This document shows, one piece after another, positions 2,563 through 37,320 of a stretch of 64,000 nt of DNA. Numbering within the stretch: position 1 is the first letter of the stretch; every line of letters begins with the position of its first letter. A program made the position numbers and the translations under genes. The notes beneath the pieces were generated by a model. It did no database searches. It saw nothing but the letters and a program-made list of their open reading frames with translations, and had not been told where the DNA came from. The stretch spans positions 992,001 through 1,056,000 of the forward strand of contig CAVOFT010000001.1 in NCBI GenBank assembly GCA_963695095.1. The letters are read 5' to 3'. The DNA comes from an uncultured bacterium (GTDB taxonomy: Bacteria > Krumholzibacteriota > Krumholzibacteriia > JACNKJ01).

Positions 2563-3792
<1,230 letters not shown>

Positions 3793-3801
3793 GGGGAGCT
3801 C

Positions 3802-7073: not shown

Positions 7074-7083
7074 TCGCCGCCCC

Positions 7084-9310: not shown

Positions 9311-10340
9311 GGAGGCCCGCATCGAGGTGATCGCCACGGCGGTCTCGGGTTCCATCGCCGACTGGAGCAAGGTCCAGCGCATCGAGCCGCTGTTTCGCGA
9401 GGCCGGCTGGACGGGGGTGCGCCTGTCCGCCATCGAGGGCCACCGCGAGGCCCGCGCGCGGGCAGCCGAACTCGTTGCCGATGGCGCGCGCATCCTGATC
9501 TCCGCCGGCGGTTCGGGCACCTTCGCCGCCGTGCTCGCCGGCATCCTCGATGCTCAGCCGCCGCTGGCGGAGATCCGCCTCGGCTTCCTGCGCAAGGGCT
9601 CGGCCGATCTCATCGGCAAGGTGCTCGGCATGCCCGACGAGATCGAGGCCGCCGTGCGGGTCTTCTCGACCGCCATCGAGCGCGATCAGGTAGAGCCCTG
9701 CGATCTCCTGCGCGTGGAAGCGATCGGCACCGGTCTGCCCGTGAAGCACTTCGTCGGCTACGGCGGCGCGGGCCTCTTCGGCCGCATCCCGCACTTCACC
9801 GAGAATCGCTTCATGAAGTGGTACAAGGGCGTGCTGAGTCAGGTCTTCGGGGACCTGGGGCCCTTCACGACGGGCATGGCGCTGGCTGTCGGCGAGCGCC
9901 TGCTCAAGGCGCCGCTGGCGCGAGCGCCCGGCTGGCGCCTCACGGTGGACGGCGACGAGGCCGCCAGCGGCCGCTTCCAGGCATTGATCCTCGTGAACGG
10001 CTACCTCGGGCCTCAGCTCGCCTACAGCGAGGATCGCCTCGGCTCGGGCCGCTTTCACTGCTACGCGCTGCGCGACCGCGGCGGCCTGGCCCTGCTGCGC
10101 CAGGCGGCGGCCGCGAGGAGCGGCGCCATCCGTCGCGATCCCACGCGCTGGGGCATGGAGCACTACCCGGCTGCCAGGAGCCTCGAAATCGCCTGCGATC
10201 GCCCCTTCCCGCTGAACGTGGACGGCTCCACGTTGCTCTGCCGCGAGCGGGCACTCATCGAGCGCGTGGGTTCGATTCCGCTACTCAGCGCGCCGCCGGC
10301 TGCGGGCGGGCCGAGCACGGCTCGCGCCTACAGCGCGTAG
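9300..10340 (+). CDS. Diacylglycerol kinase family (YegS/DAGK-like) protein
   Basis: ISAGGSGTF (GGDGT-like), GFLRKGSADL, NGYLG, PLNVDGS C-terminal motif. Confidence 0.75.
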   Translation: MVSREARIEVIATAVSGSIADWSKVQRIEPLFREAGWTGVRLSAIEGHREARARAAELVADGARILISAGGSGTFAAVLAGILDAQPPLAEIRLGFLRKGSADLIGKVLGMPDEIEAAVRVFSTAIERDQVEPCDLLRVEAIGTGLPVKHFVGYGGAGLFGRIPHFTENRFMKWYKGVLSQVFGDLGPFTTGMALAVGERLLKAPLARAPGWRLTVDGDEAASGRFQALILVNGYLGPQLAYSEDRLGSGRFHCYALRDRGGLALLRQAAAARSGAIRRDPTRWGMEHYPAARSLEIACDRPFPLNVDGSTLLCRERALIERVGSIPLLSAPPAAGGPSTARAYSA

Positions 10341-11665: not shown

Positions 11666-11713
11666 GGCCTCACCTTTCGCCTCGGCGGAGTGTAGCGCAT
11701 GCGCGCGCCGCTG

Positions 11714-13357: not shown

Positions 13358-13397
13358 GGCTGTGCAGGATCCTAGGGGCTGGCGGGCGGCCTGTCCA

Positions 13398-13487
13398 GGG
13401 GGCCGCCGCCTGCCCAGCGGCCTCTACCTCGTCCAGTTGCGCGGCGAGCGCGGGGCGGTGAGCGCCAAGGCCCTCCTCCGGCGCTGA
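13398..13487 (+). pseudogene. Orphan 3' fragment of a FlgD-Ig-domain gene
   Basis: Translates GGRRLPSGLYLVQLRGERGAVSAKALLRR*, closely matching the last ~28 aa of three other FlgD-domain proteins in the window; no upstream gene body. Confidence 0.6.
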
Positions 13488-13496
13488 TCCAGCGGC

Positions 13497-13525
13497 TTGC
13501 AAGGCCGCCCGGCGCCCCCTATGCT
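13497..13525 (+). promoter_or_regulatory. Putative sigma70 promoter of the Ser/Thr kinase gene
   Basis: TTGCAA-17nt-TATGCT, then GAGGAG RBS before ATG 13543. Confidence 0.5.
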
Positions 13526-13542
13526 TGGCGCCGAGGAGTGGC

Positions 13543-16500
13543 ATGCCCGAATTCATGGGTCCCTACCAGCTCAAGCGCTTGCTCGGCGAGGGCGGCATGG
13601 GCCAGGTCTACGAGGGCCTGGACCGCCGCAGCGGCGAGCGCGTGGCCGTGAAGCTGCTGCGGGGGGGCGCGCTGGCCATGGCGCGCGAAAAGGAGCTCTT
13701 TGCCCGCGAGGCCCGCGTGGGCATGGAGTTGGCCCATCCGGGTCTCGTGCGCGTCCTGGCCGTCGAGATCCAGGACGGCGTCCAGCCCTACCTGGCCATG
13801 GAATACCTGCCCGGGCCCACGCTCAAGGGCGTGCTCGCGGCGGGGCCGCTGGCGCCGCTCACGGCCCTGGATCTGGCCGGGGCCGTGCTCGAGGCGCTGG
13901 CCTTCGTCCACGAGCGGGGCATCATCCACCGCGACATCAAGTCCGGCAACATCATGCTGGACTTCGAGGGCCGCCCCCGCCTGATGGACTTCGGCCTCAC
14001 GACCTTTTCGGACGAGACGAGCCTGTCCCGCAGCGGCATCGTCTTCGGTTCGCCGCACTACATGTCGCCCGAACAGGGCCTGGGCGAGACGCTCGACGCG
14101 CGCAGCGATCTGTTCTCCCTCTGCATCACGCTCTTCGAGCTGCTCACGGGGCGCCTGCCCTTCCGCGGCGGCACGCCGCTGGCGGTGGTCTACGCGATCC
14201 TGAACGAAGAGCCGCAGCCCCTGCGGCGCCTGCGACCGGAGCTGCCCGAGGAGCTGGAGTGGGTCTTCGCGCGCGGTCTGGCCAAGCGGCGTGAGGACCG
14301 CTACCAGACGGCGGGCGCCCTGGCCGCGGACCTGCGCCAGGTCGAGCGACTGCTGCGCGGCGAGAGCGACGCGGGCGCTCTGCGCCTGGCCGCTGCGCCT
14401 CGGCGGCGCACGGTGGGCGAGGAGCTCTTCCCCCTGCCCCTGGCCGGCCGCGACGGCGAACTGGCCGCGCTGCAGGCGGTTTTTCGCGGCGAGGGCCCGC
14501 CGCTGCACTTCCTCGCCGGCGAGGCGGGCGCGGGCAAGACGCGGCTGGTGCGCGAGGTGCTCAACCGGCTGGGCTCGGCCGCGCCGTCCCTGCTCGTGGG
14601 TCGCACGCAGCCGGGTCGCGAGCACTTCCCCTATCAGCCCTGGCTGGAGGCCCTGCGCCCGGCGCTCGAAGCGCGCGAGCTCACCCACCCCGAGTCCCTG
14701 GCCCGGTTCCTGGGCGAGAGCGGCCAGGCCCGCGCGCGGATGCTGCATCCCTTCCTGGCCGGCGAGGGCGGCGGGCGCCTCGAGAACCGCGAGCAGCTCT
14801 TCGAAGGCCTGCGCAGCCTGCTCGCCGCGCTCTGCGCCGAGGAGCCCTGCGTCATCTGGCTCGAGGACCTGCACCGCAGCGACCAGGCGAGCCTGGACCT
14901 GCTCGCCTTTCTCGCCCGCGGCCGGGCGGGCGAGCTGCCGCCCATGCTGCTCAGCTACCGGCCCGAGGAGCTGCGCGAGGACGAAGGTCTGGCGCCTCTG
15001 CTCCGCGAGTTGAAGCTCGAGGGCCGGGCGGCCGTCCTGGAGCTGAAGCGCCTGGACGCGGCGGCCGTGGCCGAACTGGTGCGGGCCGTGCTGCCGGGCG
15101 TGGCCGATGCCGGGCGCGCGGCCCAGCGCCTGTGGGCGGAGAGCGACGGCAATCCCTTCATCCTGCGCGAACTGCTGCAGTTTCTCGACGGGCGGGCGCG
15201 AGGCCTCGCCGCCGCTCCCGAGGGCCGCACCCTGGCCCCCGGCGCCCTGCCCGCCAGCGTGCTGGACCCGGATCCCGAGCACTGGGAGCTGCCCCTGCCC
15301 GAGCGCATCCTCGATCTCGTGCAGCACCGCCTCGCCGGCCTGGGCCCCGAAGAGCGCGAGTTGCTCGAATTGGCGGCCGTGGAGGGCGAGGCCTTCAGCG
15401 CGGAAGTGCTGGCCGCCGTGCTCGAGCAGCGGCGGCTCTCCGTGCTGCGCCGTCTGCAGGAGCTCGAGCGGCGCACGCGCCTGGTGCAGGCGCGCGAAGG
15501 GCGCTTCCTCTTCGATCATGCCATCGTGCGCCGGGCCCTCTACGACGGTCTGGGCGATGCCCTGCGCCGCGAGTACCACCGCGAGGTGGGCGATTACCTC
15601 GAGCGCAGCGGCGGCGAGCAGGCGGCCAATGCCGCGGCCGTCGCGCGCCACTACGACGGCGCCGGCGAGCCGCGGCGGGCCCTGCCCTTCCATCTCGAGG
15701 CGGGACGCCACGCGCGCGCGCTCTACGCGCCCCGCGAAGCGAGGGGGCATCTGGAGCAGGCCCGCGAGGAGGCCGATCTCTGGTGGCTGGAGGAGCCCGA
15801 GGGCAAGGCCCGCGAGCTGCGCGTGCAGATCCTGCGCGAGCTGGGTCTCCTCGAGCAGACCGCGGGCCGCTACGAGCAGGCCGAGATTCTCTTCAGTGGC
15901 GCCGCCGGACTGCTGATCCCGATGCTCGAGGAGGCAAGCCGGGCCGAACTCGAGCGCCTGCGCGGCGAGTGCCTCTATCACGGCGGGCAGCCGGAGGCCG
16001 CGGCGCGGGCTTTTGCGAGCGCCCTGGCGCACTGCCCGGCCGACGATCGGGCGGAGCACGCCCGCATCCTGCGCAGCCGCGCCTACATCCAGGCCCGGGC
16101 CAACGACTGGGAGGAGGCCCTGGCCTCCTGCCGGGCGGCGCTGCTGCTCAGCGAGGGCGTGCCCGCCGATCGCCTGGCCGTGCGCCACACGATGGGCACC
16201 ATCCACCTGCAGCGCGGCGAGCTGGAGGCGGCCCGTGAAATCTTCGCGGAGGTGATCGCCGAGGCCGGCAGCGACGAACTGCAGTACCTGCGCACCGCGG
16301 CCCTGGCCAATCTCGGCACCGTGCTCTGGCGTCTGGGCGAGGGCGAGGAGGCCATTCGCTGCCTCGAGGAGAGCCTCGGCCTGCGCCGGCAGCTGGGTCT
16401 CGTGATCGAGTACGCGCAGATCCTGATGAACCTGGCCATCATCCGCACGAAGACGGGCGAACTGGACGCAGCGCGCCGCCTGCTGGCCGAGTCCAGCGAA

Positions 16501-17262
16501 TTGAAGGCGCGCATCGGCGATGCGGTGGGCCTGGCCTCGGCCGAGAACAGCCTGGGCAATCTGGAGCTGCGCGCCGGCCATCTGCCGGATGCCCTGCCGC
16601 ACTTCCAGCGCGCGGCCGCGCTTCACCGCAGCGCTCAGAATCGCGCCCGCGCCGCCGTGGCCCTGCACAATCTCGGCGAGTCGCTCGTGGAACTCGGTCA
16701 GCTCGACGACGCCGAGGCTCCGCTCGCCGAGTCGCGCGCCATCCGCGAGGAGCTGGGCCTGGAGGCCGCCCTCAGCTCCAGCCTGCGCGCGGGCGCCAGG
16801 CTGATGGCGGCGCGCGGCGACGCCGAGGCCGCACTGGCCGCCTTCGCGGCGGCGGCGGCCCAGGCCGAGCGGGCGGCGAGCCCCGACGAGGGGCTCAAGG
16901 TGGCCTGCGACCGCCTGGACTTCTTGCTGGACACCGGCGAGGTGGCCGCGGCCGCCGAGCAGCTCGCCGCCCTGCGCCGGGAACGGGAGGTCTGGCCCCC
17001 GCCCGGCCTCGAATTCGAGCTGGCGATGCTCGAGAGCCGCCTGGCGCGCGCACAGGGCGCGGCGCCGGAGCAGGCCTTCGCCGAATTGCTGGCCACGATC
17101 AGCGGGGAGAAAGAGCCATTTCAGCGGCTGCTGCTCCTCGGCGAGCGCCTCAAGGGCGCTCCCGTCGAGGAGGAGCCGCAGCTGGCCGCCGAGCTGGCGG
17201 CCCTGCGCTCCCGACCCGAGTTCGCCTGGCTGGCGGGGACTACTTCATCATCACGAGCTTGA
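13543..17262 (+). CDS. Ser/Thr protein kinase - AAA ATPase (STAND-like) - TPR protein
   Basis: LGEGGMGQVY, VAVKLL, HRDIKSGN, DFGL, GSPHYMSPEQ; then GRDGEL, GEAGAGKTRL, LEDLHRSD, DGNPFILREL; C-terminal TPRs (ANLGTV, NLAII, NSLGNL, HNLGE). Confidence 0.95.
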   Translation: MPEFMGPYQLKRLLGEGGMGQVYEGLDRRSGERVAVKLLRGGALAMAREKELFAREARVGMELAHPGLVRVLAVEIQDGVQPYLAMEYLPGPTLKGVLAAGPLAPLTALDLAGAVLEALAFVHERGIIHRDIKSGNIMLDFEGRPRLMDFGLTTFSDETSLSRSGIVFGSPHYMSPEQGLGETLDARSDLFSLCITLFELLTGRLPFRGGTPLAVVYAILNEEPQPLRRLRPELPEELEWVFARGLAKRREDRYQTAGALAADLRQVERLLRGESDAGALRLAAAPRRRTVGEELFPLPLAGRDGELAALQAVFRGEGPPLHFLAGEAGAGKTRLVREVLNRLGSAAPSLLVGRTQPGREHFPYQPWLEALRPALEARELTHPESLARFLGESGQARARMLHPFLAGEGGGRLENREQLFEGLRSLLAALCAEEPCVIWLEDLHRSDQASLDLLAFLARGRAGELPPMLLSYRPEELREDEGLAPLLRELKLEGRAAVLELKRLDAAAVAELVRAVLPGVADAGRAAQRLWAESDGNPFILRELLQFLDGRARGLAAAPEGRTLAPGALPASVLDPDPEHWELPLPERILDLVQHRLAGLGPEERELLELAAVEGEAFSAEVLAAVLEQRRLSVLRRLQELERRTRLVQAREGRFLFDHAIVRRALYDGLGDALRREYHREVGDYLERSGGEQAANAAAVARHYDGAGEPRRALPFHLEAGRHARALYAPREARGHLEQAREEADLWWLEEPEGKARELRVQILRELGLLEQTAGRYEQAEILFSGAAGLLIPMLEEASRAELERLRGECLYHGGQPEAAARAFASALAHCPADDRAEHARILRSRAYIQARANDWEEALASCRAALLLSEGVPADRLAVRHTMGTIHLQRGELEAAREIFAEVIAEAGSDELQYLRTAALANLGTVLWRLGEGEEAIRCLEESLGLRRQLGLVIEYAQILMNLAIIRTKTGELDAARRLLAESSELKARIGDAVGLASAENSLGNLELRAGHLPDALPHFQRAAALHRSAQNRARAAVALHNLGESLVELGQLDDAEAPLAESRAIREELGLEAALSSSLRAGARLMAARGDAEAALAAFAAAAAQAERAASPDEGLKVACDRLDFLLDTGEVAAAAEQLAALRREREVWPPPGLEFELAMLESRLARAQGAAPEQAFAELLATISGEKEPFQRLLLLGERLKGAPVEEEPQLAAELAALRSRPEFAWLAGTTSSSRA

Positions 17263-18985: not shown

Positions 18986-19015
18986 ATTTTATCATCTGCG
19001 CTCCACCAGCGTCAA
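18986..19015 (-). promoter_or_regulatory. Putative sigma70 promoter
   Basis: Minus strand TTGACG-18nt-TAAAAT with TG extension upstream of ATG 18946. Confidence 0.4.
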
Positions 19016-19124
19016 TGCGGGTCAGTCTGGGAACGGGTCAAGATGAGGGTAGCTGAGCGCCCCGCCGAGTGGATCCGGCTCCCAACGCACAGCCCCTGAG
19101 CGCCTCGGCCCAAGTCGATTTTAC

Positions 19125-19153
19125 TTGACAGTCAAGAGAGTCGTCGCCATTCT
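19125..19153 (+). promoter_or_regulatory. Putative sigma70 promoter with palindrome over the -35 box
   Basis: TTGACA-17nt-CATTCT; CTTGAC-A-GTCAAG perfect inverted repeat at 19124-19136. Confidence 0.4.
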
Positions 19154-19265
19154 CCGTGGTGTCAGCTATGATATCCGCAGGAGCTGCTTGTATCTACCGG
19201 GGGAAGAAGTCCAGGAGGATGCGAATCCTCAGGGGGTGTAGTACACAGGTAGAAGGGAGCTTGCC

Positions 19266-19715
19266 ATGCGATATCGTCCAGTTCTCGTCGGCTTGCTGGC
19301 AATCTCGAGTTTCGCTTTCAGCGCGCCTGCCGCCTGCCTCGCCGATACGTTCCGCTGGATCGCCGGCACCGAGGCGGGGATTCTCGACGAGGTCAGCTAT
19401 ACGAGCGAGACCCAGTTTCAAGTACATGCCAGCCTGATTCCGGATCAGCAGCCGGCTTGGGTTTTCAGCAGCGAACCGCTCCATGAATGCTACGGGGCTC
19501 AGATCCAAGATGCTCAGGTTCTGCAGAGCATCGCGGCCGCGGTCTTTCCCGGATTGGCTACGAAGCCGGATTGGATCATCCTTCTCGTCGAAGGTGAGCA
19601 GGTTCACGTCGAGCTCGATCCCGTGACGCCGTGGGCGTCCTTGTTCGCCCTGTACCGAGACGAAAACCATCCTCCGCAGGAGGTCAGCTTCTCCTATATC
19701 AAGTCGCTCTACTAG
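19266..19715 (+). CDS. Small secreted hypothetical protein with C-terminal SFSYIKSLY tail
   Basis: GAAGGGAG RBS, signal peptide MRYRPVLVGLLAISSFAFSAPAACLA, ends PPQEVSFSYIKSLY. Confidence 0.75.
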   Translation: MRYRPVLVGLLAISSFAFSAPAACLADTFRWIAGTEAGILDEVSYTSETQFQVHASLIPDQQPAWVFSSEPLHECYGAQIQDAQVLQSIAAAVFPGLATKPDWIILLVEGEQVHVELDPVTPWASLFALYRDENHPPQEVSFSYIKSLY

Positions 19716-19859
19716 GCACCACGCTCTCTGGGGGTGGTGGCTGGGCCGCCCCTAGGGGCGAGCGATGCACACGCACTCCTGAGCCCTGTTTCGTGCAGTT
19801 GGGTTTCGGGATCAGCATGGCAGCCGCTGGCGCTCCTGCGGCTGGGGGAGGAGACAGAG

Positions 19860-21164
19860 ATGAACCGGGTAAGCCTCCGAGGTCGACGTCGCGCGAGGCT
19901 GGGTACTCTCCTTTGCGTGACCCTGGTAGTTGCGCTAGGCCCGAGCAAGGCGGTCGGCGCGCGGTTGTTGGACAAGGTAGCGCCCTACCGAGACGATGCG
20001 GCCGCCTACTACAAGCTCCTAGATGCGGAGCTGGCTTCGGGGAACTGGAGCGAAGCGCAACTCGTCGAGGCCTTCGAGGAGACGCGGGATTACATCGACA
20101 CCCCTGAGCTGCGACACCTTGCGGCTACCCGGCCCCGGCTGGTGTCACGACTCCTCGAACTGATGCCGACCTACGAAGCCCTGGCTGCGCGCATCGAGGC
20201 GGATTGGGCCGTCAATCACCGGGAGCTGATGTATGACGCGCTGATCGCCTTCCTCAAGGATCGTGGTCCGGAGATCTCCGACGCGGACTTCCAACAGGCG
20301 TTTTCGCGGCTGTACGAGGCAAGTGTCCAGGACTTCGGCCGGCATTGGGAGGAAGATGCAGCGCTCGCTATGGAGGCAGGTGCGAATACTCTGTGGGGCG
20401 TGCAGCGCATGCCGGCATTGGGGCACAAGTTGGACCAAGTTACTCGTGACCGGGTCTACACACTGGTGCTCGATAATTGGGGGCGCATCAGGAGCATTCA
20501 TGTCCGCACCACAGTCGCCAGGTGTCTTCGGAAGCTGAACCGAGGGCGCGCAGTCGAGGACTTTACAGCGATGCTCTTGGCTCCAGATTGGAAGGCGATG
20601 ACTGCAGGAGCTACGAATCCAATGGTGTCCGCGATCTGCAAGAGCAAGGATGCACTCGCCCGGTATCAGCGGATCGCGCATCATACGCGCGATCCTGAGG
20701 TCTTTCGGTACATTGTCATCGCGCGGGAACACAGAGCGACCTTCTCCGAGCTGAGAATCCTCTTCGATGTGCAGAGCGATCTCTCTCAGATCGAAGGGGT
20801 GCCGTTCCAAGAGCCGAATCTTGACCGCTGCTGGTCTTCGATCGCTGATTCCTTGGCGGTGGACGCAAGCTGTACCATGCGACGGCACTTCAACAAGCTA
20901 GCCATGCGCATGGGCCCTGACAGGGCATTCGAGTTCCTCGTTCAGCACCCAGACCTTCCCTGTCCGGAATTGAAGTCCGCTCTCATCGATGTTGTGATCA
21001 GGAAGGCCCCGACGCGCCCGTTCTCCGGCCTCAAGCCTGGATCCTCCTTAATCGAAAGGAAGGAGGCGCTTGAAGCGATGGGGCTGACCCCTGCTCAAGC
21101 CCGGCTCTTGGAATCATACCTGAAGGCGGTGAATCTCCTGGAGGTGCAACATGAGAAGCCATGA
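19860..21164 (+). CDS. Secreted alpha-helical hypothetical protein
   Basis: GGAGGAG RBS before MNRVSLRGRRRARLGTLLCVTLVVALGPSKAVGA signal peptide; 434-aa ORF, lower-GC codon usage. Confidence 0.7.
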   Translation: MNRVSLRGRRRARLGTLLCVTLVVALGPSKAVGARLLDKVAPYRDDAAAYYKLLDAELASGNWSEAQLVEAFEETRDYIDTPELRHLAATRPRLVSRLLELMPTYEALAARIEADWAVNHRELMYDALIAFLKDRGPEISDADFQQAFSRLYEASVQDFGRHWEEDAALAMEAGANTLWGVQRMPALGHKLDQVTRDRVYTLVLDNWGRIRSIHVRTTVARCLRKLNRGRAVEDFTAMLLAPDWKAMTAGATNPMVSAICKSKDALARYQRIAHHTRDPEVFRYIVIAREHRATFSELRILFDVQSDLSQIEGVPFQEPNLDRCWSSIADSLAVDASCTMRRHFNKLAMRMGPDRAFEFLVQHPDLPCPELKSALIDVVIRKAPTRPFSGLKPGSSLIERKEALEAMGLTPAQARLLESYLKAVNLLEVQHEKP

Positions 21165-21537
21165 CTCGATCTCCAGAGGGCGCCAGGGTATCGGCAGCGG
21201 TGGCGGCGCAAGGCGATGGCTGTACTTGCTTCCCCTCGCCTTGGTTCTAGCCCAGGCGAGTCCAGTCAATGCCCAGTTCGAATTGGGCGACGCAGTCTAC
21301 AACAGCATCGAAGTGGGGTGCTTCACCTTGTGCTATGACCACGCCGGCATCGTTGTTGGCGTGAAGCCCGACGAGTACGGCTTGCCGGAAGTGCGGATCG
21401 TGGAGGGTACGATTCCTGCGGCCCGAGAAGTGTCCCTGGGAGAATTCGGCATGGAATGGGGCCCATATACGCGGGCCAGCTACGACTTTGGAGTTCGCCG
21501 ATCCGCGGCTGAGAATGCTCTCGATCTGCGAGGGTGA
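21151..21537 (+). pseudogene. Permuted papain-like amidase (YiiX/YebB, NlpC/P60 superfamily), truncated by IS256
   Basis: Signal peptide, then LGDAVY...YDHAGIVVG...IVEG...AREVSLGEF matching the His-first half of permuted NlpC/P60; stop codon overlaps the IS left end; Cys half absent. Confidence 0.6.
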
Positions 21538-22853
21538 GTCTGTAAGGTTTTCTGTGTAACTGGCCTTGGGCTACACTCTATCGGAGGAGAGCGACCATGG
21601 CCAAACCAGATCCTGTGGACAAGCTGATCGACGAGCTGATCCTGGGCAAGCAGCCCGAGGAGATCCTCGGCAAGGACGGCGTGCTCAAGCAGCTCACGAA
21701 GCGGCTTGTCGAGCGCGCCCTCGAAGGCGAGATGACCCACCACCTGGGCTACGCGCCGCATGCCCCCGAGGGCCGGGGCAGCGGCAATTCACGCAACGGC
21801 AAGACGAGCAAGACCCTGCTGGCCGAGAGCGGGGAACTGGAGATCACCGTGCCCCGCGACCGCAGCGGCGAGTTCGAGCCGGTGCTCGTCCCCAAGCGCC
21901 AGCGCCGGCTCGCCGGCTTCGACGACAAGGTGATCGCGCTCTACGCACGGGGCCTGACGACGCGCGAGATCCAGGCTCACCTCGAGGAGCTCTACGGCGT
22001 CGAGGTCTCGCCGCAACTGATCTCGGCGGTAACCGACGCGGTGCTGGACGAGGTCGCAGCCTGGCAGAACCGGCCGCTGGATCCGGTCTATCCGATCGTC
22101 TACTTGGATGCGATCCATCTCAAGCTGCGCAGCGAGGGCCGCGTGCAAAACCAGGCGGTCTACCTGGCGCTGGGGATCACGCTCGAGGGGAGGAAGGAGC
22201 TGCTCGGCCTGTGGATCGGCGAGAGCGAAGGGGCCAAGTTCTGGCTGGGCGTGATCACGGAGCTGCGAAACCGTGGGCTGCAGGACATCCTGATCGCCTG
22301 CGTGGATGGGCTGAAGGGCTTCCCCGAAGCGATCGAGACGGTCTACCCGCGGACGCAGGTGCAACTGTGCATCATCCACATGGTGCGCCATTCGCTCAAG
22401 TACGTGGGCTGGAAGGAGCGCAAGGCGGTGGCGGCGGATCTGCGGACGATCTACACGGCGGCCACGGCCGAGGCCGGGGAGCAGGCGCTGACGGCCTTCG
22501 AGGCGAAGTGGGGAGCGCGCTACCCGTCGATCGGCAAGAGCTGGCGGGCCAACTGGGCGAACCTGATCCCGTTCTACAGCTACCCGCCGGCAATCCGGAA
22601 GGTGATCTACACGACGAACGCGATCGAGTCGATGCAGGCGAGCCTGCGCAAGCTGCTGCGGCATCGGGGTGCTTTCCCGAACGCGGAGAGCGTGCGCAAG
22701 GTGCTATACTTGGCGCTGCAGCGGATCGCAAAGGGCTGGAAGCGGCCGGTCCTGGACTGGGTCGCGGCCCTGAATCACTTCAGCGTGGTGTTTGAGGGGA
22801 GAATCTAGCGGTGATCGGAGATGGGTCAGTTACACAGAATTCTGGACACACTC
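21536..22853 (+). mobile_element. IS256-family insertion sequence
   Basis: 30-bp imperfect terminal IRs GAGTCTGTAAGGTTTTCTGTGTAACTGGCC (21536-21565) and reverse complement GAGTGTGTCCAGAATTCTGTGTAACTGACC (22824-22853), 23/30 identical, flanking the transposase. Confidence 0.92.
21597..22808 (+). CDS. IS256 family (Mutator) transposase
   Basis: GNSRNG, VPRDRSGEFEP, LYARGLTTREI, YPIVYLDAI, DGLKGFPEAI, QLCIIH, IYTTNAIES. Confidence 0.97.
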   Translation: MAKPDPVDKLIDELILGKQPEEILGKDGVLKQLTKRLVERALEGEMTHHLGYAPHAPEGRGSGNSRNGKTSKTLLAESGELEITVPRDRSGEFEPVLVPKRQRRLAGFDDKVIALYARGLTTREIQAHLEELYGVEVSPQLISAVTDAVLDEVAAWQNRPLDPVYPIVYLDAIHLKLRSEGRVQNQAVYLALGITLEGRKELLGLWIGESEGAKFWLGVITELRNRGLQDILIACVDGLKGFPEAIETVYPRTQVQLCIIHMVRHSLKYVGWKERKAVAADLRTIYTAATAEAGEQALTAFEAKWGARYPSIGKSWRANWANLIPFYSYPPAIRKVIYTTNAIESMQASLRKLLRHRGAFPNAESVRKVLYLALQRIAKGWKRPVLDWVAALNHFSVVFEGRI

Positions 22854-22970: not shown

Positions 22971-25022
22971 ATGGCCCGTGCACTTTCGTCCCTCGCGACG
23001 CTCTTCGGATCGGCAAGCGGCGTCGTGCTGTTGGTTCTAACCAGCGCAGCGGCCTTCACGCTGCGTCTGGTCTATCTGCTGCCCCTGCGCGGCCAGGCGC
23101 TCTTCGACGAGCCGCACCGGGACTCGATCGAGTACGTCGATCGCGCGCGCGGCATCCTGGCCGGCGACTTCTGGGGCCGCGGCGTCTACTTCCACTCGGC
23201 GCCGCTGTACCCCTACTTCCTTGCCTTGGTGATGGGCCCGACCGGGGCCACCGGTCTCTGGTGGGTGCGCGTCGTGCAGGCCTTGCTGTCGGGGCTCACC
23301 GCCGGTCTGTTGGCGCTCACGGGCCGCCGCCTTTTCGGCCGCGCAGCCGGTGTCGCGACCGCCGCGCTCGCGGTGCTCTACGCCCCCTTCCTCTTCTATA
23401 GTGGCGAGCTGCTCGAGATCACGCTGACCCTCTTCTTCCTCGCCCTGCTGGCCTGGATCCTGGCGCGCGAGCAGCTCGCCGCGCGGCATCTCGTCGCGGC
23501 GGGGCTCTGCCTCGGTCTCGCCGCGCTCGGCAAGCCGAACCTGCTGATCTTGGCTCCCGTGGTGCTGGTGGCGCTGGGCTTCCTGCGGCCGCTGGCGCGG
23601 CCCGCGCGCTGGCCCTGGCGGCGAGGCCTGCTCTTCGCCGCAGGCATCGTCGTGGTCGTGGCGCCCTTCACCCTGCGCAACAAGCTGGTGGGCGACGACT
23701 GGGTGCTCATTAGCAGCAACGGTGGCATCAACCTGTTCATCGGCAACAACCCGCAGGCGACGGGCGGCTTCCAGGTGCCCACCGCCATGCAGTACGACCT
23801 CGAGCACTCGAGCCAGCGCGTCGCTGCGGAGGCCCTCGGCCACGCGGCGAAGCCCTCCGAGGCGAGCCGCTTCTGGGCGAGTCGAGCTTGGGCCTTCCTG
23901 ACCGAGCGGCCGGGGCAGGCGCTGAAGCTCGTCGTGCGCAAGGCGGGCCTGCTCATCGGCAGCTACGAGATTCCCAACCACTTCAACATCTACTTCTTTC
24001 GCGAGAACTTCGCGCCCGTGCTGCGCTGGCCGCTGGTCTGGTACACGCTGGCCCTGCCCTTCGGCGTGCTCGGCCTCGTCGCCGGACTGCGGCGCGGCCG
24101 CCGCAGCCGCCTGGCCGCGGCCTGCCTGCTGGCGATCGCCGCCACCGTGCTGCTCTTCTTCGTCACCAGCCGCTACCGGCTACCCCTGCTCATCTGGCTG
24201 CTGCCCTTTGCCGGCTACGGCCTGACGCTACTTGTGACGGCGCTGCGCGAGCGGCGCTGGCGCTTGATCGGCTTCTTGCTTGCGTTGCTCCTGGCGACCG
24301 GCGCGCTCATGCATCTGCCGCTGGTCAGGGCGAAGGACTTCCACGACGACTGGGAGACGCTGGCCTTCTACTGGGGCCGCCAGGGCGACTGGGACCGCGC
24401 GGCCTTCTACAACCAGCAGGCCCTGCGTGAGAACATGCGCTCGGCGGCGGCCTGGCAGAACCTGGGCTATGCCTACACGCAGCGAGGCCGCGACCTTGCG
24501 GACTGGGATCGCGCGGAGGAGTGCTTCTACAAGGCCATCGAGCTGGATCCCACCCTTGCGCATGCTTACGGCAATCTCGCCTTCGTCTATTTCACCTGGG
24601 ATCGGCCCGAGCTGTTTGCCGCCTGCCTGGATCGCGCGCTCCTGCTCGATCCGGCGCTCGCAGAGACCCTGGCAGAGATGGTCCGCTTCCGGGGCGCCAA
24701 GCTGAGTGGCTGGCGCGAGCGGGCCGAGCAGCAGCTCAGCGGCATCCGCGAGCGCCGGGCGGCGGCTCCCAACGATCCCTGGTTGATGATGGAGGAGGGC
24801 CGCATCCTGGGCATCCGCCTGGAGGATTACGCGGCCAGCCTGCAGATACTGAGCGGGATTCCCATGGCGACGCTGGCCGCGGACTCCGCGCTCACCGATC
24901 GCGTGTCGATGCTGCGCCAGCGCATCGAGCGGGCCGAGCGCTATGCGCCGCTGTTGAGCCGGCCCCTGCCGGGTGAGCGGCGCGCGCCGCTGCGTCCGCC
25001 GCTCAGCCTGCCGGCGCCCTGA
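22971..25022 (+). CDS. GT-C fold (PMT/ArnT-like) membrane glycosyltransferase with C-terminal TPRs
   Basis: DSIEY...APLYPYFLA, KPNLLI, PFTLRN, GGINLFIGNNPQATG, FFVTSRYRLP; TPR motifs AAAWQNLGYAY and AHAYGNLAFVY. Confidence 0.85.
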   Translation: MARALSSLATLFGSASGVVLLVLTSAAAFTLRLVYLLPLRGQALFDEPHRDSIEYVDRARGILAGDFWGRGVYFHSAPLYPYFLALVMGPTGATGLWWVRVVQALLSGLTAGLLALTGRRLFGRAAGVATAALAVLYAPFLFYSGELLEITLTLFFLALLAWILAREQLAARHLVAAGLCLGLAALGKPNLLILAPVVLVALGFLRPLARPARWPWRRGLLFAAGIVVVVAPFTLRNKLVGDDWVLISSNGGINLFIGNNPQATGGFQVPTAMQYDLEHSSQRVAAEALGHAAKPSEASRFWASRAWAFLTERPGQALKLVVRKAGLLIGSYEIPNHFNIYFFRENFAPVLRWPLVWYTLALPFGVLGLVAGLRRGRRSRLAAACLLAIAATVLLFFVTSRYRLPLLIWLLPFAGYGLTLLVTALRERRWRLIGFLLALLLATGALMHLPLVRAKDFHDDWETLAFYWGRQGDWDRAAFYNQQALRENMRSAAAWQNLGYAYTQRGRDLADWDRAEECFYKAIELDPTLAHAYGNLAFVYFTWDRPELFAACLDRALLLDPALAETLAEMVRFRGAKLSGWRERAEQQLSGIRERRAAAPNDPWLMMEEGRILGIRLEDYAASLQILSGIPMATLAADSALTDRVSMLRQRIERAERYAPLLSRPLPGERRAPLRPPLSLPAP

Positions 25023-34247: not shown

Positions 34248-36005
<1,758 letters not shown>

Positions 36006-36011
36006 ACATAT

Positions 36012-36163
36012 GGCGACATTGTGACGCTGAAGGCTGTCGCACCTAATCGCATGATTTTATGCAGGTTATGTCCGATCGTCGAGATATGTCGCCTATTGTT
36101 TACGAATGCCAACTCCGACTCCACCTCCATTGCGCTCGCGATCGAGATCTTAACCCACTGAAA
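36012..36163 (+). promoter_or_regulatory. Putative upstream activator sequences and IHF-like sites
   Basis: GGCGACAT (36012-36019) with inverted copies TGTCGC (36035-36040) and ATGTCGCC (36086-36093); minus-strand AATCATGCGATTA (36044-36056) and TTTCAGTGGGTTA (36151-36163) resemble WATCAANNNNTTR; AT-rich. Confidence 0.5.
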
Positions 36164-36214
36164 CATAGCGAGTTATGGCCTCTCTCCCGTTTCGGAAGCG
36201 ATGCGTAAGCTTGC

Positions 36215-36230
36215 GGGCACTCCGGTTGCT
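36215..36230 (+). promoter_or_regulatory. Sigma54 (-24/-12) promoter
   Basis: GGGCACTCCGGTTGCT = GG-N10-GC with GGCAC and TTGC flanks, ~57 nt upstream of ATG 36287. Confidence 0.8.
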
Positions 36231-36286
36231 CTAGGAAGGGTGACGACCTTCGGGGCGATTCGAGGACACCAACGGGAGGCAATGCA

Positions 36287-36361
36287 ATGTTGATCACTCT
36301 ACTGACTGCGCTGATGGGTGCCTACCTCACCAAGACCTGGTGGACCAAGACCTGGTGGTAG
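36287..36361 (+). CDS. 24-aa peptide MLITLLTALMGAYLTKTWWTKTWW (putative signal/RiPP precursor 1)
   Basis: GGAGG RBS 7 nt upstream; hydrophobic leader plus tandem TKTWW; paralogous to 36434..36511. Confidence 0.8.
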   Translation: MLITLLTALMGAYLTKTWWTKTWW

Positions 36362-36511
36362 GAGAGGTCTGACTCAAACGGATGATCACGCACCCTGGCG
36401 AAGGCGGGGAGTGATCCGACAAGGAGGTCACCAATGCTGTTCGTCTACTTGGCCATGATTTCGACCACTGTACTCACCGCGACCAAGACCTGGTGGAAGA
36501 CCTGGTGGTAG
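36329..36511 (+). repeat. Four copies of (ACC)AAGACCTGGTGG coding (T)KTWW
   Basis: ACCAAGACCTGGTGG at 36329, 36344 and 36482; AAGACCTGGTGG at 36497; both tandems end in TAGG. Confidence 0.9.
36434..36511 (+). CDS. 25-aa peptide MLFVYLAMISTTVLTATKTWWKTWW (putative signal/RiPP precursor 2)
   Basis: AAGGAGGT RBS 5 nt upstream; same C-terminal tandem motif behind a divergent hydrophobic leader. Confidence 0.8.
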   Translation: MLFVYLAMISTTVLTATKTWWKTWW

Positions 36512-36557
36512 GTCGCTAGCAGATTCCGCTCCGTTCCCCCCGGTACGAGTGGAACCA

Positions 36558-36644
36558 GGACCGGAGACCATTCCGGTCCACCTTCAAGGATGGCTCTGAC
36601 TGGATGTCAGAGCTCCGGCCTTCCCAATCGGGAAGGCCGGGTTC
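36558..36644 (+). terminator. Three consecutive perfect hairpins after the peptide genes (terminator or structured 3' UTR)
   Basis: GGACCGGA/TCCGGTCC (36558-36579), GCTCTGAC/GTCAGAGC (36593-36613), CCGGCCTTCCC/GGGAAGGCCGG (36615-36640). Confidence 0.55.
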
Positions 36645-36689
36645 ACTGAGCGAAAACTAGGGAGGCCGACGTTGAGGAGACGACGGAAC

Positions 36690-36800
36690 ATGGAGCGCGA
36701 TGGGAGCCGTGGCCGCAGCGGCCCCGGACCCCTGATCGCGGTCCTGAGATTTCTGGCCCTGCTGTCCACAGCGCCCGCAAAGGCGCGCTGGATCGGCTAG
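36690..36800 (+). CDS. Possible 36-aa small peptide MERDGSRGRSGPGPLIAVLRFLALLSTAPAKARWIG
   Basis: GAGGAG 10 nt upstream of ATG; short hydrophobic core; TAG at 36798-36800. Confidence 0.35.
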   Translation: MERDGSRGRSGPGPLIAVLRFLALLSTAPAKARWIG

Positions 36801-37026
36801 TCGGCGCCGCGCAGCGTCCCATCAACGCTGCGGGGAGTCAGCCGGGATCTTGCTGTCGTCTGCCTGTTGACCACGTCAAGGGCCTGCTGCGACTGCGGCA
36901 GGCCCTCTTCGTTGCTGCTAGCCGCGCTTGTGATGTTTTCCGCATTCCCTGCTTGATTCCGGAGAGGGCCCTGGCTATCCTGTCCCGGCTCCAAGATTCC
37001 AACTCCGCAACAGCAGCCGTAGGACC

Positions 37027-37320
37027 ATGGGTCGACTGCACCGATGGGCCAGACGCCTGGTGACAGGGCGGGGGCAGGACGCAAGCTCGTTCTCGCTCGC
37101 TCATGTCGGTCTGACCTATGGTGCCGCCGTCGCGCTCTACGCGCTCGGCGGCTGGTGGCTGGATCGGCGGCTGGGAACCCTGCCCTGGTTCACCTTGCTG
37201 GGCGTGATCTTGGGTGCAGGAGGCGGGTTTCTCTGGGTCTACCGCGAGGTGGCCCGGGCCGAAACCCAGTCGCGAGCAGACAAGACCGCCAGGAGGGAAA
37301 GGGAATCGAAGCCGCCGTGA
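37027..37320 (+). CDS. atpZ: ATP synthase-associated AtpZ/AtpI (ATPase gene 1) protein; start uncertain
   Basis: GGWWLDRRLGTLPWFTLLGVILG motif; first gene of atp operon. Confidence 0.8.
   Translation: MGRLHRWARRLVTGRGQDASSFSLAHVGLTYGAAVALYALGGWWLDRRLGTLPWFTLLGVILGAGGGFLWVYREVARAETQSRADKTARRERESKPP

What the first reader, a model, noticed from the sequence alone, without database searches (positions are those of the whole stretch)
36287..36511. Two paralogous micro-peptides ending in tandem (T)KTWW repeats: candidate undescribed peptide signal or RiPP system
Seen: two ORFs missing from the ORF track, MLITLLTALMGAYL-TKTWW-TKTWW and MLFVYLAMISTTVLTA-TKTWW-KTWW, each with a strong RBS. The hydrophobic leaders have diverged completely while the C-terminal core is identical and duplicated, which points to selection on the peptide core. 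Known: a hydrophobic export leader plus a short C-terminal core is the layout of Phr/AimP/ComS pheromones (many ComS/XIP cores carry WW), tandem cores occur in multi-core RiPP precursors, and Lys-Trp and Trp-Trp crosslinks occur in streptide and darobactin. Inference: an exported TKTWW-type pentapeptide signal or modified product in a diderm lineage. No modifying enzyme is adjacent, which favours signalling or trans-encoded maturation.
Basis: partly seen in the sequence, partly recalled or inferred. Interest (0 to 1): 0.92.

Follow-up and report, generated by a model that had tools for sequence, protein, structure and literature searches.

The report
Sigma-54-driven TKTWW micro-protein genes
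Two real, conserved and transcribed genes for 24- and 25-residue hydrophobic peptides ending in T-K-T-W-W sit behind a dedicated sigma-54 promoter and belong to a previously undescribed small-protein family confined to one uncultured bacterial order; their function is still unknown.

Summary
ORF1 (36287-36361) and ORF2 (36434-36511) exist, each with a strong Shine-Dalgarno site. They follow a sigma-54 promoter (36215-36230), which is served by the GAF-AAA+-HTH activator gene immediately upstream.

The same locus, between a DHH phosphoesterase/activator gene pair and the atp operon, carries one to three such peptide genes in 8 of 12 genomes of the order. A second family member (19-20 aa, ...TK[T/V]WW) lies about 40 nt upstream of a MASE9-HD-GYP phosphodiesterase gene in 11 of 12. 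It shows strong purifying selection (pN/pS 0.11).

I found no family member in 196 other genomes of the class or in a scan of 185,579 species. Short metatranscriptome contigs from four studies cover 36253-36577.

The RiPP or pentapeptide-pheromone reading is not supported:
- The genome has no SPASM maturase and the window has no maturase.
- The tandem repeat is lineage-specific.
- Some members carry three residues after WW.
- The motif does not vary across the order.

Best reading (about 0.5): activator-induced single-pass membrane micro-proteins whose juxtamembrane TKTWW motif docks onto a membrane partner. The MASE9 sensor is the leading, untested candidate.

The parts
34248..36005 (+). Enhancer-binding protein (585 aa): N-terminal region, GAF, sigma-54 AAA+ domain, AAA lid, Fis-type HTH. 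It is the candidate dedicated activator of the peptide promoter.
   Evidence: Pfam: Sigma54_activat 4.1e-68, GAF 8e-09, HTH_8 1.1e-07. It is below the cut-off for every named NCBIfam equivalog; NifA and NorR score best. Orthologs (47-75% identity) sit in the same position in 10 of 11 other order genomes.
36012..36093 (.). Putative upstream activator sequence: three half-sites, GGCGACA (36012), TGTCGCA (36035) and TGTCGCC (36087), lying within a 20-nt inverted repeat (36000-36019 / 36086-36105).
   Evidence: Inverted repeat I1 has 85% complementarity. A cluster of three or more such words with a sigma-54 promoter within 450 nt occurs only here in the 3.64-Mb genome, out of 3 clusters found. GGCGACA/TGTCGCC words recur upstream in relatives. 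That this is the binding site is an inference.
36215..36230 (+). Sigma-54 promoter GGGCAC-tccgg-TTGCT (-24 GG at 36216-17, -12 GC at 36228-29). Predicted start is near 36241.
   Evidence: Read from the sequence. The same element occupies the same position in all 8 peptide-bearing loci and in the extra copy of G008. rpoN is present in the genome. RNA contigs begin at 36253-36268.
36287..36361 (+). ORF1, a 24-aa micro-protein: a 14-residue hydrophobic stretch followed by TKTWW-TKTWW. The SD GGGAGG is at 36274-36279.
   Evidence: Orthologs occur in G001, G002, G008 and L140 with an in-frame 9-nt indel (24 vs 27 aa). It is the most conserved nucleotide stretch of the locus. GRAVY of the N-terminal part is 1.99.
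36434..36511 (+). ORF2, a 25-aa micro-protein: a 16-residue hydrophobic stretch followed by TKTWW-KTWW. The SD AAGGAGGT is at 36421-36428.
   Evidence: Orthologs in G001, G002, G008 and L140 are 21-24 aa with a single TKTWW. pN/pS is 0.72 over the first 21 codons.
36509..36650 (+). Highly structured 3' region: four consecutive hairpins, the last one (36615-36640) terminator-like but without a U tract. It includes a conserved GTTCCCCCCGGT block.
   Evidence: MFE is -73.3 kcal/mol against -50.4 +/- 4.05 for shuffles, z = -5.67, 0 of 200 shuffles as stable. The consensus fold of 4 relatives has 9 of 37 pairs with compensatory changes. A covariance model finds it only in genera g1 and g7, with a weak hit in G007.
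36672..36800 (+). ORF3, a 42-aa conserved small ORF: basic N-terminus, hydrophobic helix, ...AP.K.RW. It lies between the terminator-like hairpin and the atp promoter. Whether it belongs to the same unit is open.
   Evidence: tblastn matches at the same position in 6 relatives. SD AGGGAGG. No Pfam or NCBIfam match. It has no homolog other than itself in the 5.8-billion-protein collection.
36953..36981 (+). Sigma-70-type promoter of the atp operon (TTGATT, 17 nt, TATCCT). It marks the downstream limit of the peptide unit.
   Evidence: A conserved block precedes atpZ in all aligned relatives, including those without peptides. atpZ at 37027-37320 matches ATPase_gene1 at 1.2e-11. That it is a promoter is an inference.

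Best explanation
ORF1 and ORF2 are genuine genes for tiny hydrophobic proteins. They are the cargo of a short sigma-54-dependent transcript of roughly 330-400 nt. That transcript is switched on by the GAF-domain enhancer-binding protein encoded directly upstream, so the pair forms a dedicated sensor-activator and small-effector module.

The peptides belong to an order-restricted family defined by a hydrophobic stretch of 14-18 residues followed by T-K-T-W-W. The most likely mechanism is as follows. Each peptide inserts into the inner membrane of the producing cell as a single helix. The Lys-plus-Trp-Trp motif sits at the membrane-water interface, with Lys on the cytoplasmic side by the positive-inside rule. 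There it anchors the helix and docks it onto a conserved membrane protein whose activity it modulates.

The best candidate partner is the MASE9-HD-GYP c-di-GMP phosphodiesterase. The third family member in this genome carries the same LTKTWW end and is encoded about 40 nt upstream of that gene, an arrangement found in 11 of 12 genomes of the order. Under this model the sigma-54-induced peptides would compete with, or add to, the resident peptide at the MASE9 sensor.

Shown here: the ORFs, SD sites, promoter elements, synteny, the selection pattern, restriction to the order, and presence in RNA libraries. Inferred: activator-promoter pairing, translation, membrane insertion and topology. Speculative: the MASE9 target.
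For: Coding signal. All 30 of 30 family ORFs have an SD, and indels and internal duplications are in frame (9, 12 and 15 nt). In the sibling family, Leu, Phe and Asp codons are scrambled while the peptide is nearly invariant: pS 0.485, pN 0.054, pN/pS 0.11 over 7 orthologs. ORF1-type 27-mers give 0.26.

Sigma-54 control. GG-N10-GC elements occupy the same place in 8 of 8 loci. The activator gene is adjacent in all of them. The repeat cluster plus promoter is unique in the genome, and rpoN is present.

The peptide is the product, not a leader. In G005 and G007 a single peptide gene is followed directly by an intrinsic terminator, and the atp operon has its own promoter.

Transcription. Whole RNA-library contigs of 104-315 nt from 4 of 4 runs laid, from four studies, cover 36253-36577. 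They start 12-27 nt after the predicted start site. No contig covers the activator gene or atp flank.

Membrane character. GRAVY of the N-terminal parts is 1.4-2.1. The only charges in the sigma-54-driven members are the Lys of the motif, one further Lys just before it in two members of one genome, and an Asp in two 3-residue tails.

A conserved cellular partner rather than a private signal. The motif is invariant in 12 of 12 order genomes while activator identity falls to 47%. In this genome the motif occurs only in the three peptides.

Link to MASE9. The sibling gene is syntenic with the HD-GYP gene in 11 of 12 genomes. The HD and GYP motifs are intact. The paper that defined MASE9 argues from charged intramembrane residues that its ligand binds within the membrane (passages read, bioRxiv 10.1101/2021.11.05.467447). 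The sibling peptide has conserved Asp residues inside its hydrophobic part.
Against: There is no direct evidence of translation, membrane location or any partner.

The RNA evidence comes from assembled contigs, which cannot give strand, ends or abundance. RNA libraries can contain DNA, and no DNA run was laid for comparison. Two DNA runs hold a similar share of sampled words (0.18-0.19), so part of the signal may reflect sequence conservation rather than expression.

The hydrophobic stretch of ORF1 is only 14 residues, which is short for a membrane span.

The sibling peptide is not a classical transmembrane segment: it has a Lys and two or three acidic residues.

The sigma-54 peptides and the HD-GYP peptide are not co-distributed. 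The four genomes of genus g3 have only the latter and G005 only the former.

A search for MASE9 residues that track presence of the sibling peptide gave no clear signal. Of 217 columns invariant in peptide-bearing genomes, 17 differ in G005, and only about two of those match the outgroup state.

In genus g3 the same activator locus drives non-coding RNAs instead, so the module's output need not be a peptide.

ORF1 is more conserved at synonymous sites within the genus than its neighbours. pS is 0.058 against G001, and 1 nt of 75 differs from L140 while the activator is 77% identical. This hints at an added RNA-level constraint that the model does not explain.
Confidence: 0.5

Rival explanations
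1. Exported signalling peptides. The hydrophobic precursor is cut in the membrane and a C-terminal TKTWW-containing fragment is released, in the manner of ComS/XIP and short hydrophobic peptides of streptococci. It is then sensed by the MASE9 receptor and/or, after re-import, by the GAF domain of the adjacent activator, closing an autoinduction loop.
For: The size and layout resemble ComS/SHP-type precursors, and a double-tryptophan motif is a recognised feature of ComS/XIP (term found in the search listing and abstracts). The gene sits next to its presumed regulator and behind a promoter that regulator controls. A sibling peptide is encoded next to a membrane sensor. Tandem gene copies (1-3) would raise signal dose.
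Against: The adjacent regulator is a sigma-54 activator, not an RRNPP/Rgg receptor. The putative mature part is invariant across the whole order and across paralogs, unlike pherotype variation. Five members extend three residues beyond WW. There is no N-terminal positive region or cleavage motif, and no exporter or processing gene lies in the window. The organism is a presumed diderm, so a second membrane must be crossed. No export evidence of any kind was found.
Confidence: 0.12
2. Membrane-active effector peptides. These would be stress-induced peptides that perturb the membrane itself through depolarisation or surfactant-like action, comparable to type I toxins or to phenol-soluble modulins. 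Modulins are also encoded as tandem peptide genes of about 20-25 codons, each with its own SD, in a short transcript under one activator (comparison recalled, not tested).
For: The peptides are short hydrophobic helices with an aromatic and basic end. The genes form tandem arrays with individual strong SDs in a small transcript that is tightly gated by a sigma-54 activator. In G005 the peptide gene is the only cargo of the transcript.
Against: No antisense RNA or antitoxin feature was found (promoter and terminator scan; Rfam). The sigma-54 peptides are not amphipathic: the hydrophobic moment is 0.14-0.87 while GRAVY of the N-terminal parts is 1.4-2.1. An invariant five-residue motif shared with a peptide encoded about 40 nt upstream of a signalling enzyme gene suggests specific recognition rather than bulk membrane action.
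Confidence: 0.12
3. Regulatory leader or arrest peptides. Translation of the Trp-Trp-stop end stalls the ribosome, through Trp-tRNA supply or nascent-chain arrest at release, and thereby controls the downstream RNA or gene. The peptide itself has no function.
For: Each ORF ends with two or four Trp codons. The sibling ORF lies about 40 nt before the HD-GYP start, which allows coupling. Its whole 20-residue sequence is nearly invariant, as in known arrest peptides. The stops are almost never TGA: TAG 24, TAA 5, TGA 1 of 30.
Against: In G005 and G007 the sigma-54 peptide gene is followed by a terminator and no downstream gene. No Trp-metabolism genes lie nearby. Five members do not end at WW. 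The stop-codon bias and the constant ACC codons largely follow genome-wide context bias: after TGG the counts are TAG 47, TGA 17, TAA 3, and before TGG they are ACC 486 against ACG 29. The hairpin over the HD-GYP SD is no more stable than shuffles, z = 0.0.
Confidence: 0.08
4. RiPP precursors. The Lys and Trp residues are cross-linked or otherwise modified by a maturase encoded elsewhere, and tandem motifs act as multiple cores.
For: Several precursor-like paralogs occur per genome.
Against: No SPASM domain was found anywhere in the 93.5%-complete genome, while the control search rings in 8 of 14 reference genomes. No maturase-like domain appeared among 38 window ORFs. The leader is a bare hydrophobic stretch of 14-18 residues that drifts freely (pN/pS 0.72), whereas RiPP leaders are the conserved recognition part. 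Tandem cores are lineage-specific. The gene next to the sibling peptide has the fold of the LeuA-type amino-acid-binding regulatory domain, not an enzyme fold.
Confidence: 0.03
5. A non-coding regulatory RNA whose ORFs are incidental. The functional unit is the sigma-54-dependent small RNA with its structured 3' part.
For: In genus g3 the same activator locus drives small non-coding transcripts with C-rich loops and terminators. The 3' region here is unusually stable, z = -5.67. ORF1 synonymous sites are unusually conserved within the genus.
Against: SD sites, reading frames and the motif are kept in 30 of 30 ORFs with in-frame indels. In G005 there is no structured 3' part beyond a terminator. 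The same peptide motif is under strong purifying selection at an unrelated locus. The covariance model of the 3' region does not find the g3 RNAs. A dual function, peptide plus RNA, remains possible.
Confidence: 0.03

Closest known systems
Small inner-membrane regulatory proteins of bacteria (for example MgrB, AcrZ, KdpF, SgrT; examples recalled from general knowledge)
   Same: They are under 50 residues with one hydrophobic helix and are missed by annotation. They are induced by a specific regulator and are thought to act by binding a larger membrane protein. One family member is encoded directly next to a candidate partner, as KdpF is.
   Different: There is no sequence relationship: no Pfam or NCBIfam hit at E up to 10. 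A five-residue C-terminal motif is shared by two otherwise unrelated peptide types. The genes are under sigma-54/EBP control and form tandem copies. The partner is unknown.
Sigma-54 activator with an adjacent small-transcript target (LuxO-Qrr and GlrR-GlmY type modules; recalled) and dual-function small RNAs (reviews seen only as search listing and abstracts)
   Same: An enhancer-binding protein gene lies next to a short sigma-54-dependent transcript that is its apparently only nearby target. In a sister genus the transcript is non-coding. The transcript here also has a strongly structured 3' part.
   Different: Here the transcript carries one to three translated-looking ORFs. No base-pairing function was shown. 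No homology was detected between the 3' region and the non-coding RNAs of genus g3.
ComS/XIP and SHP pheromone precursors of streptococci
   Same: The precursor is about 17-30 residues and hydrophobic, has a Trp-Trp-containing C-terminal part, and is encoded beside its regulator (double-tryptophan term: listing and abstracts).
   Different: The regulator is a sigma-54 activator rather than an RRNPP/Rgg protein. The motif is invariant across an order rather than variable between pherotypes. The lineage is a presumed diderm. No exporter, processing or import evidence was found.
Phenol-soluble modulin operons of staphylococci (recalled)
   Same: Tandem peptide genes of about 20-25 codons, each with its own SD, sit in one short transcript under a dedicated activator.
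   Different: The peptides here are uniformly hydrophobic rather than amphipathic. They share a specific terminal motif. No dedicated exporter was seen.

Membership tests
Sigma-54-dependent promoter / EBP regulon | -24 GG and -12 GC elements spaced GG-N10-GC upstream of the transcript | tested here: met
   GGGCACtccggTTGCT at 36215-36230. Equivalent elements occur in 8 of 8 peptide loci and in the extra G008 copy.
Sigma-54-dependent promoter / EBP regulon | An enhancer-binding protein, an upstream activator sequence, and rpoN in the genome | tested here: met
   The adjacent gene has the Sigma54_activat domain at 4.1e-68 plus HTH_8. The repeat cluster at 36012-36093 is unique in the genome in combination with a promoter. 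One rpoN at 2.1e-64. Actual binding and dependence are not testable here.
RiPP precursor of the radical-SAM cross-linked kind (streptide, darobactin, triceptide) | A radical SAM/SPASM maturase adjacent to the precursor or present in the genome | tested here: not met
   PF13186 gave 0 matches in the own genome (93.5% complete), while the control rings in 8 of 14 reference genomes. None appeared among 38 window ORFs.
RiPP precursor of the radical-SAM cross-linked kind (streptide, darobactin, triceptide) | A conserved leader as recognition element with the core at the C-terminus | tested here: not met
   The N-terminal part is a drifting hydrophobic stretch (pN/pS 0.72 for ORF2-type). Only the C-terminal motif is conserved.
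ComS/SHP-type peptide pheromone | An adjacent cytosolic RRNPP/Rgg-type receptor that activates the precursor gene | tested here: not met
   The adjacent regulator is a GAF/sigma-54 AAA+/HTH_8 protein.
ComS/SHP-type peptide pheromone | Export, processing and re-import of a C-terminal fragment | not testable with these tools
   No exporter or processing gene lies in the window. Genome-wide transporters were not examined.
Trp-sensing leader peptide (trpL/TnaC kind) | A short ORF with Trp codons that controls downstream Trp-related genes through a terminator or release block | tested here: not met
   In G005 and G007 the ORF is followed by a terminator and no operon. Here the next genes are ORF3 and the atp operon, which has its own promoter.
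Type I toxin-antitoxin | A small hydrophobic toxin with an overlapping or adjacent antisense RNA | tested here: inconclusive
   The hydrophobic-peptide feature is met. No antisense promoter or terminator was seen in the consensus scan and there was no Rfam match. The RNA contigs are unstranded.
Single-pass small membrane protein (a kind, not a sequence family) | A hydrophobic segment long enough to span or embed in the bilayer, with flanking interfacial or charged residues | tested here: met
   The segments are 14-18 residues with GRAVY 1.4-2.1, followed by Lys and Trp-Trp. ORF1's 14 residues are at the short end. Localisation is not testable here.

The most novel reading that the evidence does not exclude
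The TKTWW peptides are a peptide-based signalling system in a diderm, uncultured phylum. A membrane-derived or exported TKTWW ligand is read by the MASE9 intramembrane sensor of an HD-GYP phosphodiesterase, and possibly by the GAF domain of the sigma-54 activator that drives its own peptide genes. That would couple an autoinducing peptide circuit to c-di-GMP turnover and give the first ligand for a MASE-type sensor domain.
Probability: 0.1. Interest if true: 0.85.

Novelty: new variant of a known kind. Interest (0 to 1): 0.5.

Why it matters
Genes of 19-28 codons are invisible to standard annotation. This case shows a complete and well-delimited small-protein module: sensor-activator, enhancer site, sigma-54 promoter and one to three micro-protein genes. 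It is conserved across an order of an uncultured phylum, probably Krumholzibacteriota judging by the title of one record that carries a family gene (L076).

A second family member is encoded just upstream of a c-di-GMP phosphodiesterase whose MASE9 sensor has no known ligand. If the shared TKTWW end is a docking motif, it offers a concrete and testable handle on how MASE-type intramembrane sensors are regulated.

The locus also shows how a sigma-54 response can be delivered by peptides in some genera and by small RNAs in a sister genus. If the peptides prove to be generic membrane anchors, the finding is a tidy but ordinary lineage-specific small-protein family.

Tried and rejected
1. Family look-ups. 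Pfam and NCBIfam at E up to 10 gave nothing for ORF1, ORF2 or ORF3. Rfam found nothing meaningful in 35900-37100, with all matches far below gathering scores. It found nothing in five sibling loci.

The ESM Atlas, AF2 and complex prediction state minima of 30 residues, so I sent no peptide job. As a result no structure or complex test of the peptides, including peptide with MASE9, was possible.

3. ORF3 has no homolog other than itself.

4. Nucleotide-level constraint on the motif. The near-constant ACC-AAG-ACC-TGG-TGG-TAG looked like an RNA or DNA signal. Genome-wide context bias explains most of it: ACC 486 against ACG 29 before TGG, and TAG 47, TGA 17, TAA 3 after TGG. The first Thr codon (ACC 32, ACT 3, ACG 1 of 36) remains only partly explained, since ACC 241 against ACG 204 before AAG shows no bias.

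5. ComQ-ComX-ComP analogy for the sibling locus. The 286-aa upstream protein has no Pfam match. Its AF2 model has mean pLDDT 72.8. The C-terminal domain matches the LeuA/citramalate-synthase regulatory domain at Foldseek E 8e-05 to 8e-04. That is not a prenyltransferase or other maturase.

6. Homology between the 3' region and the g3 sigma-54 RNAs. The covariance model R1 gave no hit at E up to 1 in L040-L042.

7. A hairpin masking the HD-GYP SD is not more stable than shuffles, z = 0.0 and 0.61.

8. MASE9 residues tracking presence of the sibling peptide gave no clear signal.

9. Search for the same arrangement outside the order. Eleven best activator homologs in other families had no promoter-plus-peptide downstream. 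Eighteen HD-GYP orthologs in other families had no upstream hydrophobic small ORF.

10. Broader pattern searches. The four class-level pattern matches outside the order, and 68 of 74 matches in the 185,579-species scan, are chance or antisense frames.

11. Literature. 'TKTWW' anywhere in the full text returned one unrelated plant paper, seen as a listing only. I therefore found nothing in print on this motif in that library.

13. Habitat. Shares of sampled words in public runs were all below 0.2, so I make no habitat claim.
Full report
**Observation**

The two ORFs are in the sequence as described. ORF1 (36287-36361) encodes MLITLLTALMGAYLTKTWWTKTWW behind GGGAGG. ORF2 (36434-36511) encodes MLFVYLAMISTTVLTATKTWWKTWW behind AAGGAGGT. 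The 12-mer AAGACCTGGTGG occurs four times, against 0.14 expected by chance (0 of 100 shuffles reach four). It occurs nowhere else in the window. It has to come from relatives.

**The locus**

The upstream gene (34248-36005) is a GAF / sigma-54 AAA+ / HTH_8 enhancer-binding protein. It falls below the cut-off of every named NCBIfam equivalog. Between it and ORF1 lie two features:
- A 20-nt inverted repeat with three GGCGACA/TGTCGC(C/A) words (36012-36093).
- A sigma-54 promoter, GGGCAC-N5-TTGCT (36215-36230).

In the whole 3.64-Mb genome, a cluster of three or more such words next to a sigma-54-like promoter occurs only here. rpoN is present.

After ORF2 comes a 140-nt region that folds into four hairpins far more stably than shuffles (z = -5.67, 0 of 200). 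Next is a third conserved small ORF (36672-36800). After that comes a sigma-70-type promoter for the atp operon (atpZ at 37027). The peptide unit is therefore bounded on both sides and is not part of the atp operon.

**Relatives**

The window's order holds 12 species genomes in one family.
- A pattern for TKTWW-stop matched 9 of the 12, with no control match. One of these matches (G004) is a chance frame.
- The activator-adjacent locus carries one to three peptide genes in 8 of 12 genomes. Each copy has its own SD, and the same sigma-54 element is present in all 8.
- The synteny of DHH phosphoesterase, activator, small transcript(s) and atpZ holds in all 11 genomes in which the activator locus was fetched.
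- Lengths differ by in-frame steps: 24 against 27 aa for ORF1-type genes. The TKTWW duplication in ORF1 is 15 nt and is shared by two genera. The KTWW duplication in ORF2 is 12 nt and is private to this genome, because a close metagenomic relative (L140) has the same ORF1 peptide with an AAA Lys codon and a single motif in ORF2.
- Five members continue for three residues after WW.
- In G005 and G007 a single peptide gene is followed directly by an intrinsic terminator. This shows that the peptide, not a downstream gene, is what the transcript delivers.

**A second family member**

The pattern search also found a 20-aa ORF, MFKFI(F/I)DLFFGDLLLTKTWW, elsewhere in this genome (G000:C1, about 2.50 Mb). 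It lies between a 286-aa protein of no Pfam family and a MASE9-HD-GYP gene, about 40 nt before that gene's start.
- It is syntenic in 7 genomes. Genus g3 has a 19-aa variant ending in TKVWW (4 of 4 genomes). G005 has none, which gives 11 of 12.
- Its Leu, Phe and Asp codons are scrambled between genomes while the peptide hardly changes: pS 0.485, pN 0.054, pN/pS 0.11. This is the clearest coding signature in the study.
- For comparison, ORF1-type 27-mers give 0.26. ORF2-type leaders give 0.72, meaning only hydrophobicity is kept there.
- Every one of the 12 genomes has at least one family member.
- In this genome the motif [TS]K.WW/KTWW occurs in the three peptides and in no credible long gene. 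The only other two matches lie in frames that do not look coding (a 56-codon open frame, and a frame with GC3 0.58).

**Distribution**

- Outside the order, 4 of 196 class genomes matched the pattern, against 2 control matches. None of the four is a small hydrophobic ORF.
- An exact scan of 185,579 species for L/F-TKTWW-TAG gave 74 stretches, about the number expected by chance. Six are family genes. The rest are unrelated or antisense frames.
- One family-bearing record is titled Candidatus Krumholzibacteriota (L076).
- The best activator homologs in other families (11 loci) and the HD-GYP orthologs in other families (18 loci) have no comparable peptide gene.

The family is therefore an invention of this order. 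It has no Pfam or NCBIfam model. The only full-text match for the motif is an unrelated plant paper (listing only).

**Expression**

Thirteen RNA-library runs hold part of the 1.2-kb stretch. I laid four of them, from four studies.
- Whole contigs of 104-315 nt cover 36253-36577 with 0-4 differences. They begin at 36253, 36259, 36263 and 36268, which is 12-27 nt after the start predicted from the -12 element.
- No contig covers the activator gene or the atp flank.
- Further contigs carry the motif inside other, related leaders.

Contigs give neither strand nor true ends, RNA libraries can hold DNA, and no DNA run was laid. This is therefore a hint of a discrete and abundant small transcript, not proof.

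**What it is not**

*RiPP.* The genome has no SPASM domain and the window has no maturase. The leader drifts while the 'core' is fixed. The tandem cores are recent duplications. The protein beside the sibling gene models as a LeuA-type amino-acid-binding regulatory domain, not an enzyme.

*Trp attenuator.* There are no downstream Trp genes, and some loci have a terminator with no downstream operon.

*DNA or RNA motif.* The constant codons and the lack of TGA stops first looked like a nucleotide-level signal. They mostly follow genome-wide context bias.

*Pure sRNA.* The SD sites, frames and motif are kept in 30 of 30 ORFs.

In genus g3, however, the same activator locus has one or two sigma-54 promoters driving non-coding, terminator-ended RNAs with C-rich loops. 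My covariance model does not link these RNAs to the 3' region here. ORF1 is also more conserved at synonymous sites within the genus than its neighbours. A dual role, peptide plus RNA, therefore stays open.

**Most likely mechanism**

The sigma-54-driven peptides are uniformly hydrophobic, with GRAVY 1.4-2.1 over 14-18 residues. Charges are nearly confined to the motif: its Lys, one further Lys just before it in two members of one genome, and an Asp in two 3-residue tails. A Lys with two Trp at the end of a hydrophobic helix is the classic interfacial anchor, a comparison I recall from model-peptide work. The positive-inside rule puts that end in the cytoplasm.

The exact sequence T-K-T-W-W is fixed across an order and shared by two otherwise unrelated peptide types. 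That argues for recognition by a conserved cellular component rather than a private signal.

The only contextual clue to that component is the sibling's position just upstream of the MASE9-HD-GYP gene. That protein keeps its HD and GYP motifs. The authors who defined the MASE9 domain proposed that it binds its ligand within the membrane (passages read). I therefore propose activator-induced membrane micro-proteins that dock through TKTWW onto a membrane partner, with MASE9 as the leading candidate.

The first part I hold at about 0.5. The MASE9 step I hold at about 0.15-0.2. I could not test it, and a residue-tracking attempt gave nothing.

**Verdict**

This is a real, conserved, probably expressed and undescribed micro-protein family with a dedicated sigma-54 switch. 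The specific RiPP or pentapeptide-signal reading is not supported, though an exported signal is not excluded. Interest is moderate: the module is unusually complete and experimentally tractable, but its function is unknown and it is confined to one uncultured order.

Noticed in passing
L040 about 3303-3700, L042 about 3306-3900, L041 about 3320-3850 (genus g3, same locus between activator and atpZ): In genus g3 the orthologous activator (45-47% identity) is followed by one or two sigma-54 promoters (two in L041 and L042, one picked up in L040). These drive non-coding transcripts of about 170-200 nt with C-rich (CCCCCC) loops and clear intrinsic terminators, and there are no peptide genes. The same regulatory slot is filled by small RNAs instead of micro-proteins.
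   Followed up: partly
window 36672-36800: A third conserved small ORF (35-42 aa in relatives) has a basic N-terminus, a hydrophobic helix and ...AP.K.RW. It lies between the peptide transcript's terminal hairpin and the atp promoter. It has no family and no homolog outside the lineage.
   Followed up: partly
L026 about 6932-7080 minus strand (G000:C1 about 2.504 Mb) and the same region in 10 relatives: The leader of about 100 nt ahead of the sibling peptide gene carries a TTGACA box and two direct repeats, CAGCG(A/G/T)AGCG ... (C/A/G)(C/A/T)AG(C/T)G(A/G)AGCG. Their AGCG cores are invariant in 11 of 11 genomes. The leader has no Rfam match. It could be a protein-binding operator or an RNA element.
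   Followed up: partly
L021:1722-2579 minus strand (286-aa gene upstream of the sibling peptide): This order-conserved protein has no Pfam family. It has an N-terminal alpha/beta domain, an acidic Pro-rich disordered linker, and a C-terminal beta-beta-beta-alpha x2 domain. The C-terminal domain matches the leucine/isoleucine-binding regulatory domain of LeuA and citramalate synthase (Foldseek E about 1e-4).
   Followed up: yes
L139 (G008:C8:17000-30000), peptide at about 23215-23295: G008 has an extra ORF1-type gene with its own sigma-54 promoter but no adjacent activator. It sits between a polysaccharide-biosynthesis (Polysacc_synt) flippase gene and a PGA_cap capsule-synthesis gene. It may be controlled in trans.
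   Followed up: partly
whole genome G000: There is strong codon-context bias. Thr before a T-starting codon is ACC 2651 against ACG 225, although overall use is 45:48. After a final TGG codon the stops are TAG 47, TGA 17, TAA 3, against 50% TGA overall.
   Followed up: yes
window 10328-17262: This is a signalling cluster. It holds a response-regulator-type sigma-54 activator (10328-11665, minus strand), an FHA-GAF-HisKA-HATPase kinase (11714-13357, minus strand), and a 1245-aa Ser/Thr kinase with AAA_16 and TPR domains (13525-17262). The genome has many sigma-54 activators: 43 first-look candidates with the window's activator as query.
   Followed up: no
window 21597-22808: A Mutator-family transposase gene (Pfam 4.5e-127). 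The stretch of about 19000-21600 before it has no high-GC3 ORF.
   Followed up: no
L026 2863-4368 minus strand: A second sigma-54 activator (501 aa, without GAF) lies two genes downstream of the HD-GYP gene. In other families of the class, the best homolog of the window's activator also lies within about 5-18 kb of the HD-GYP ortholog on the same contig.
   Followed up: no
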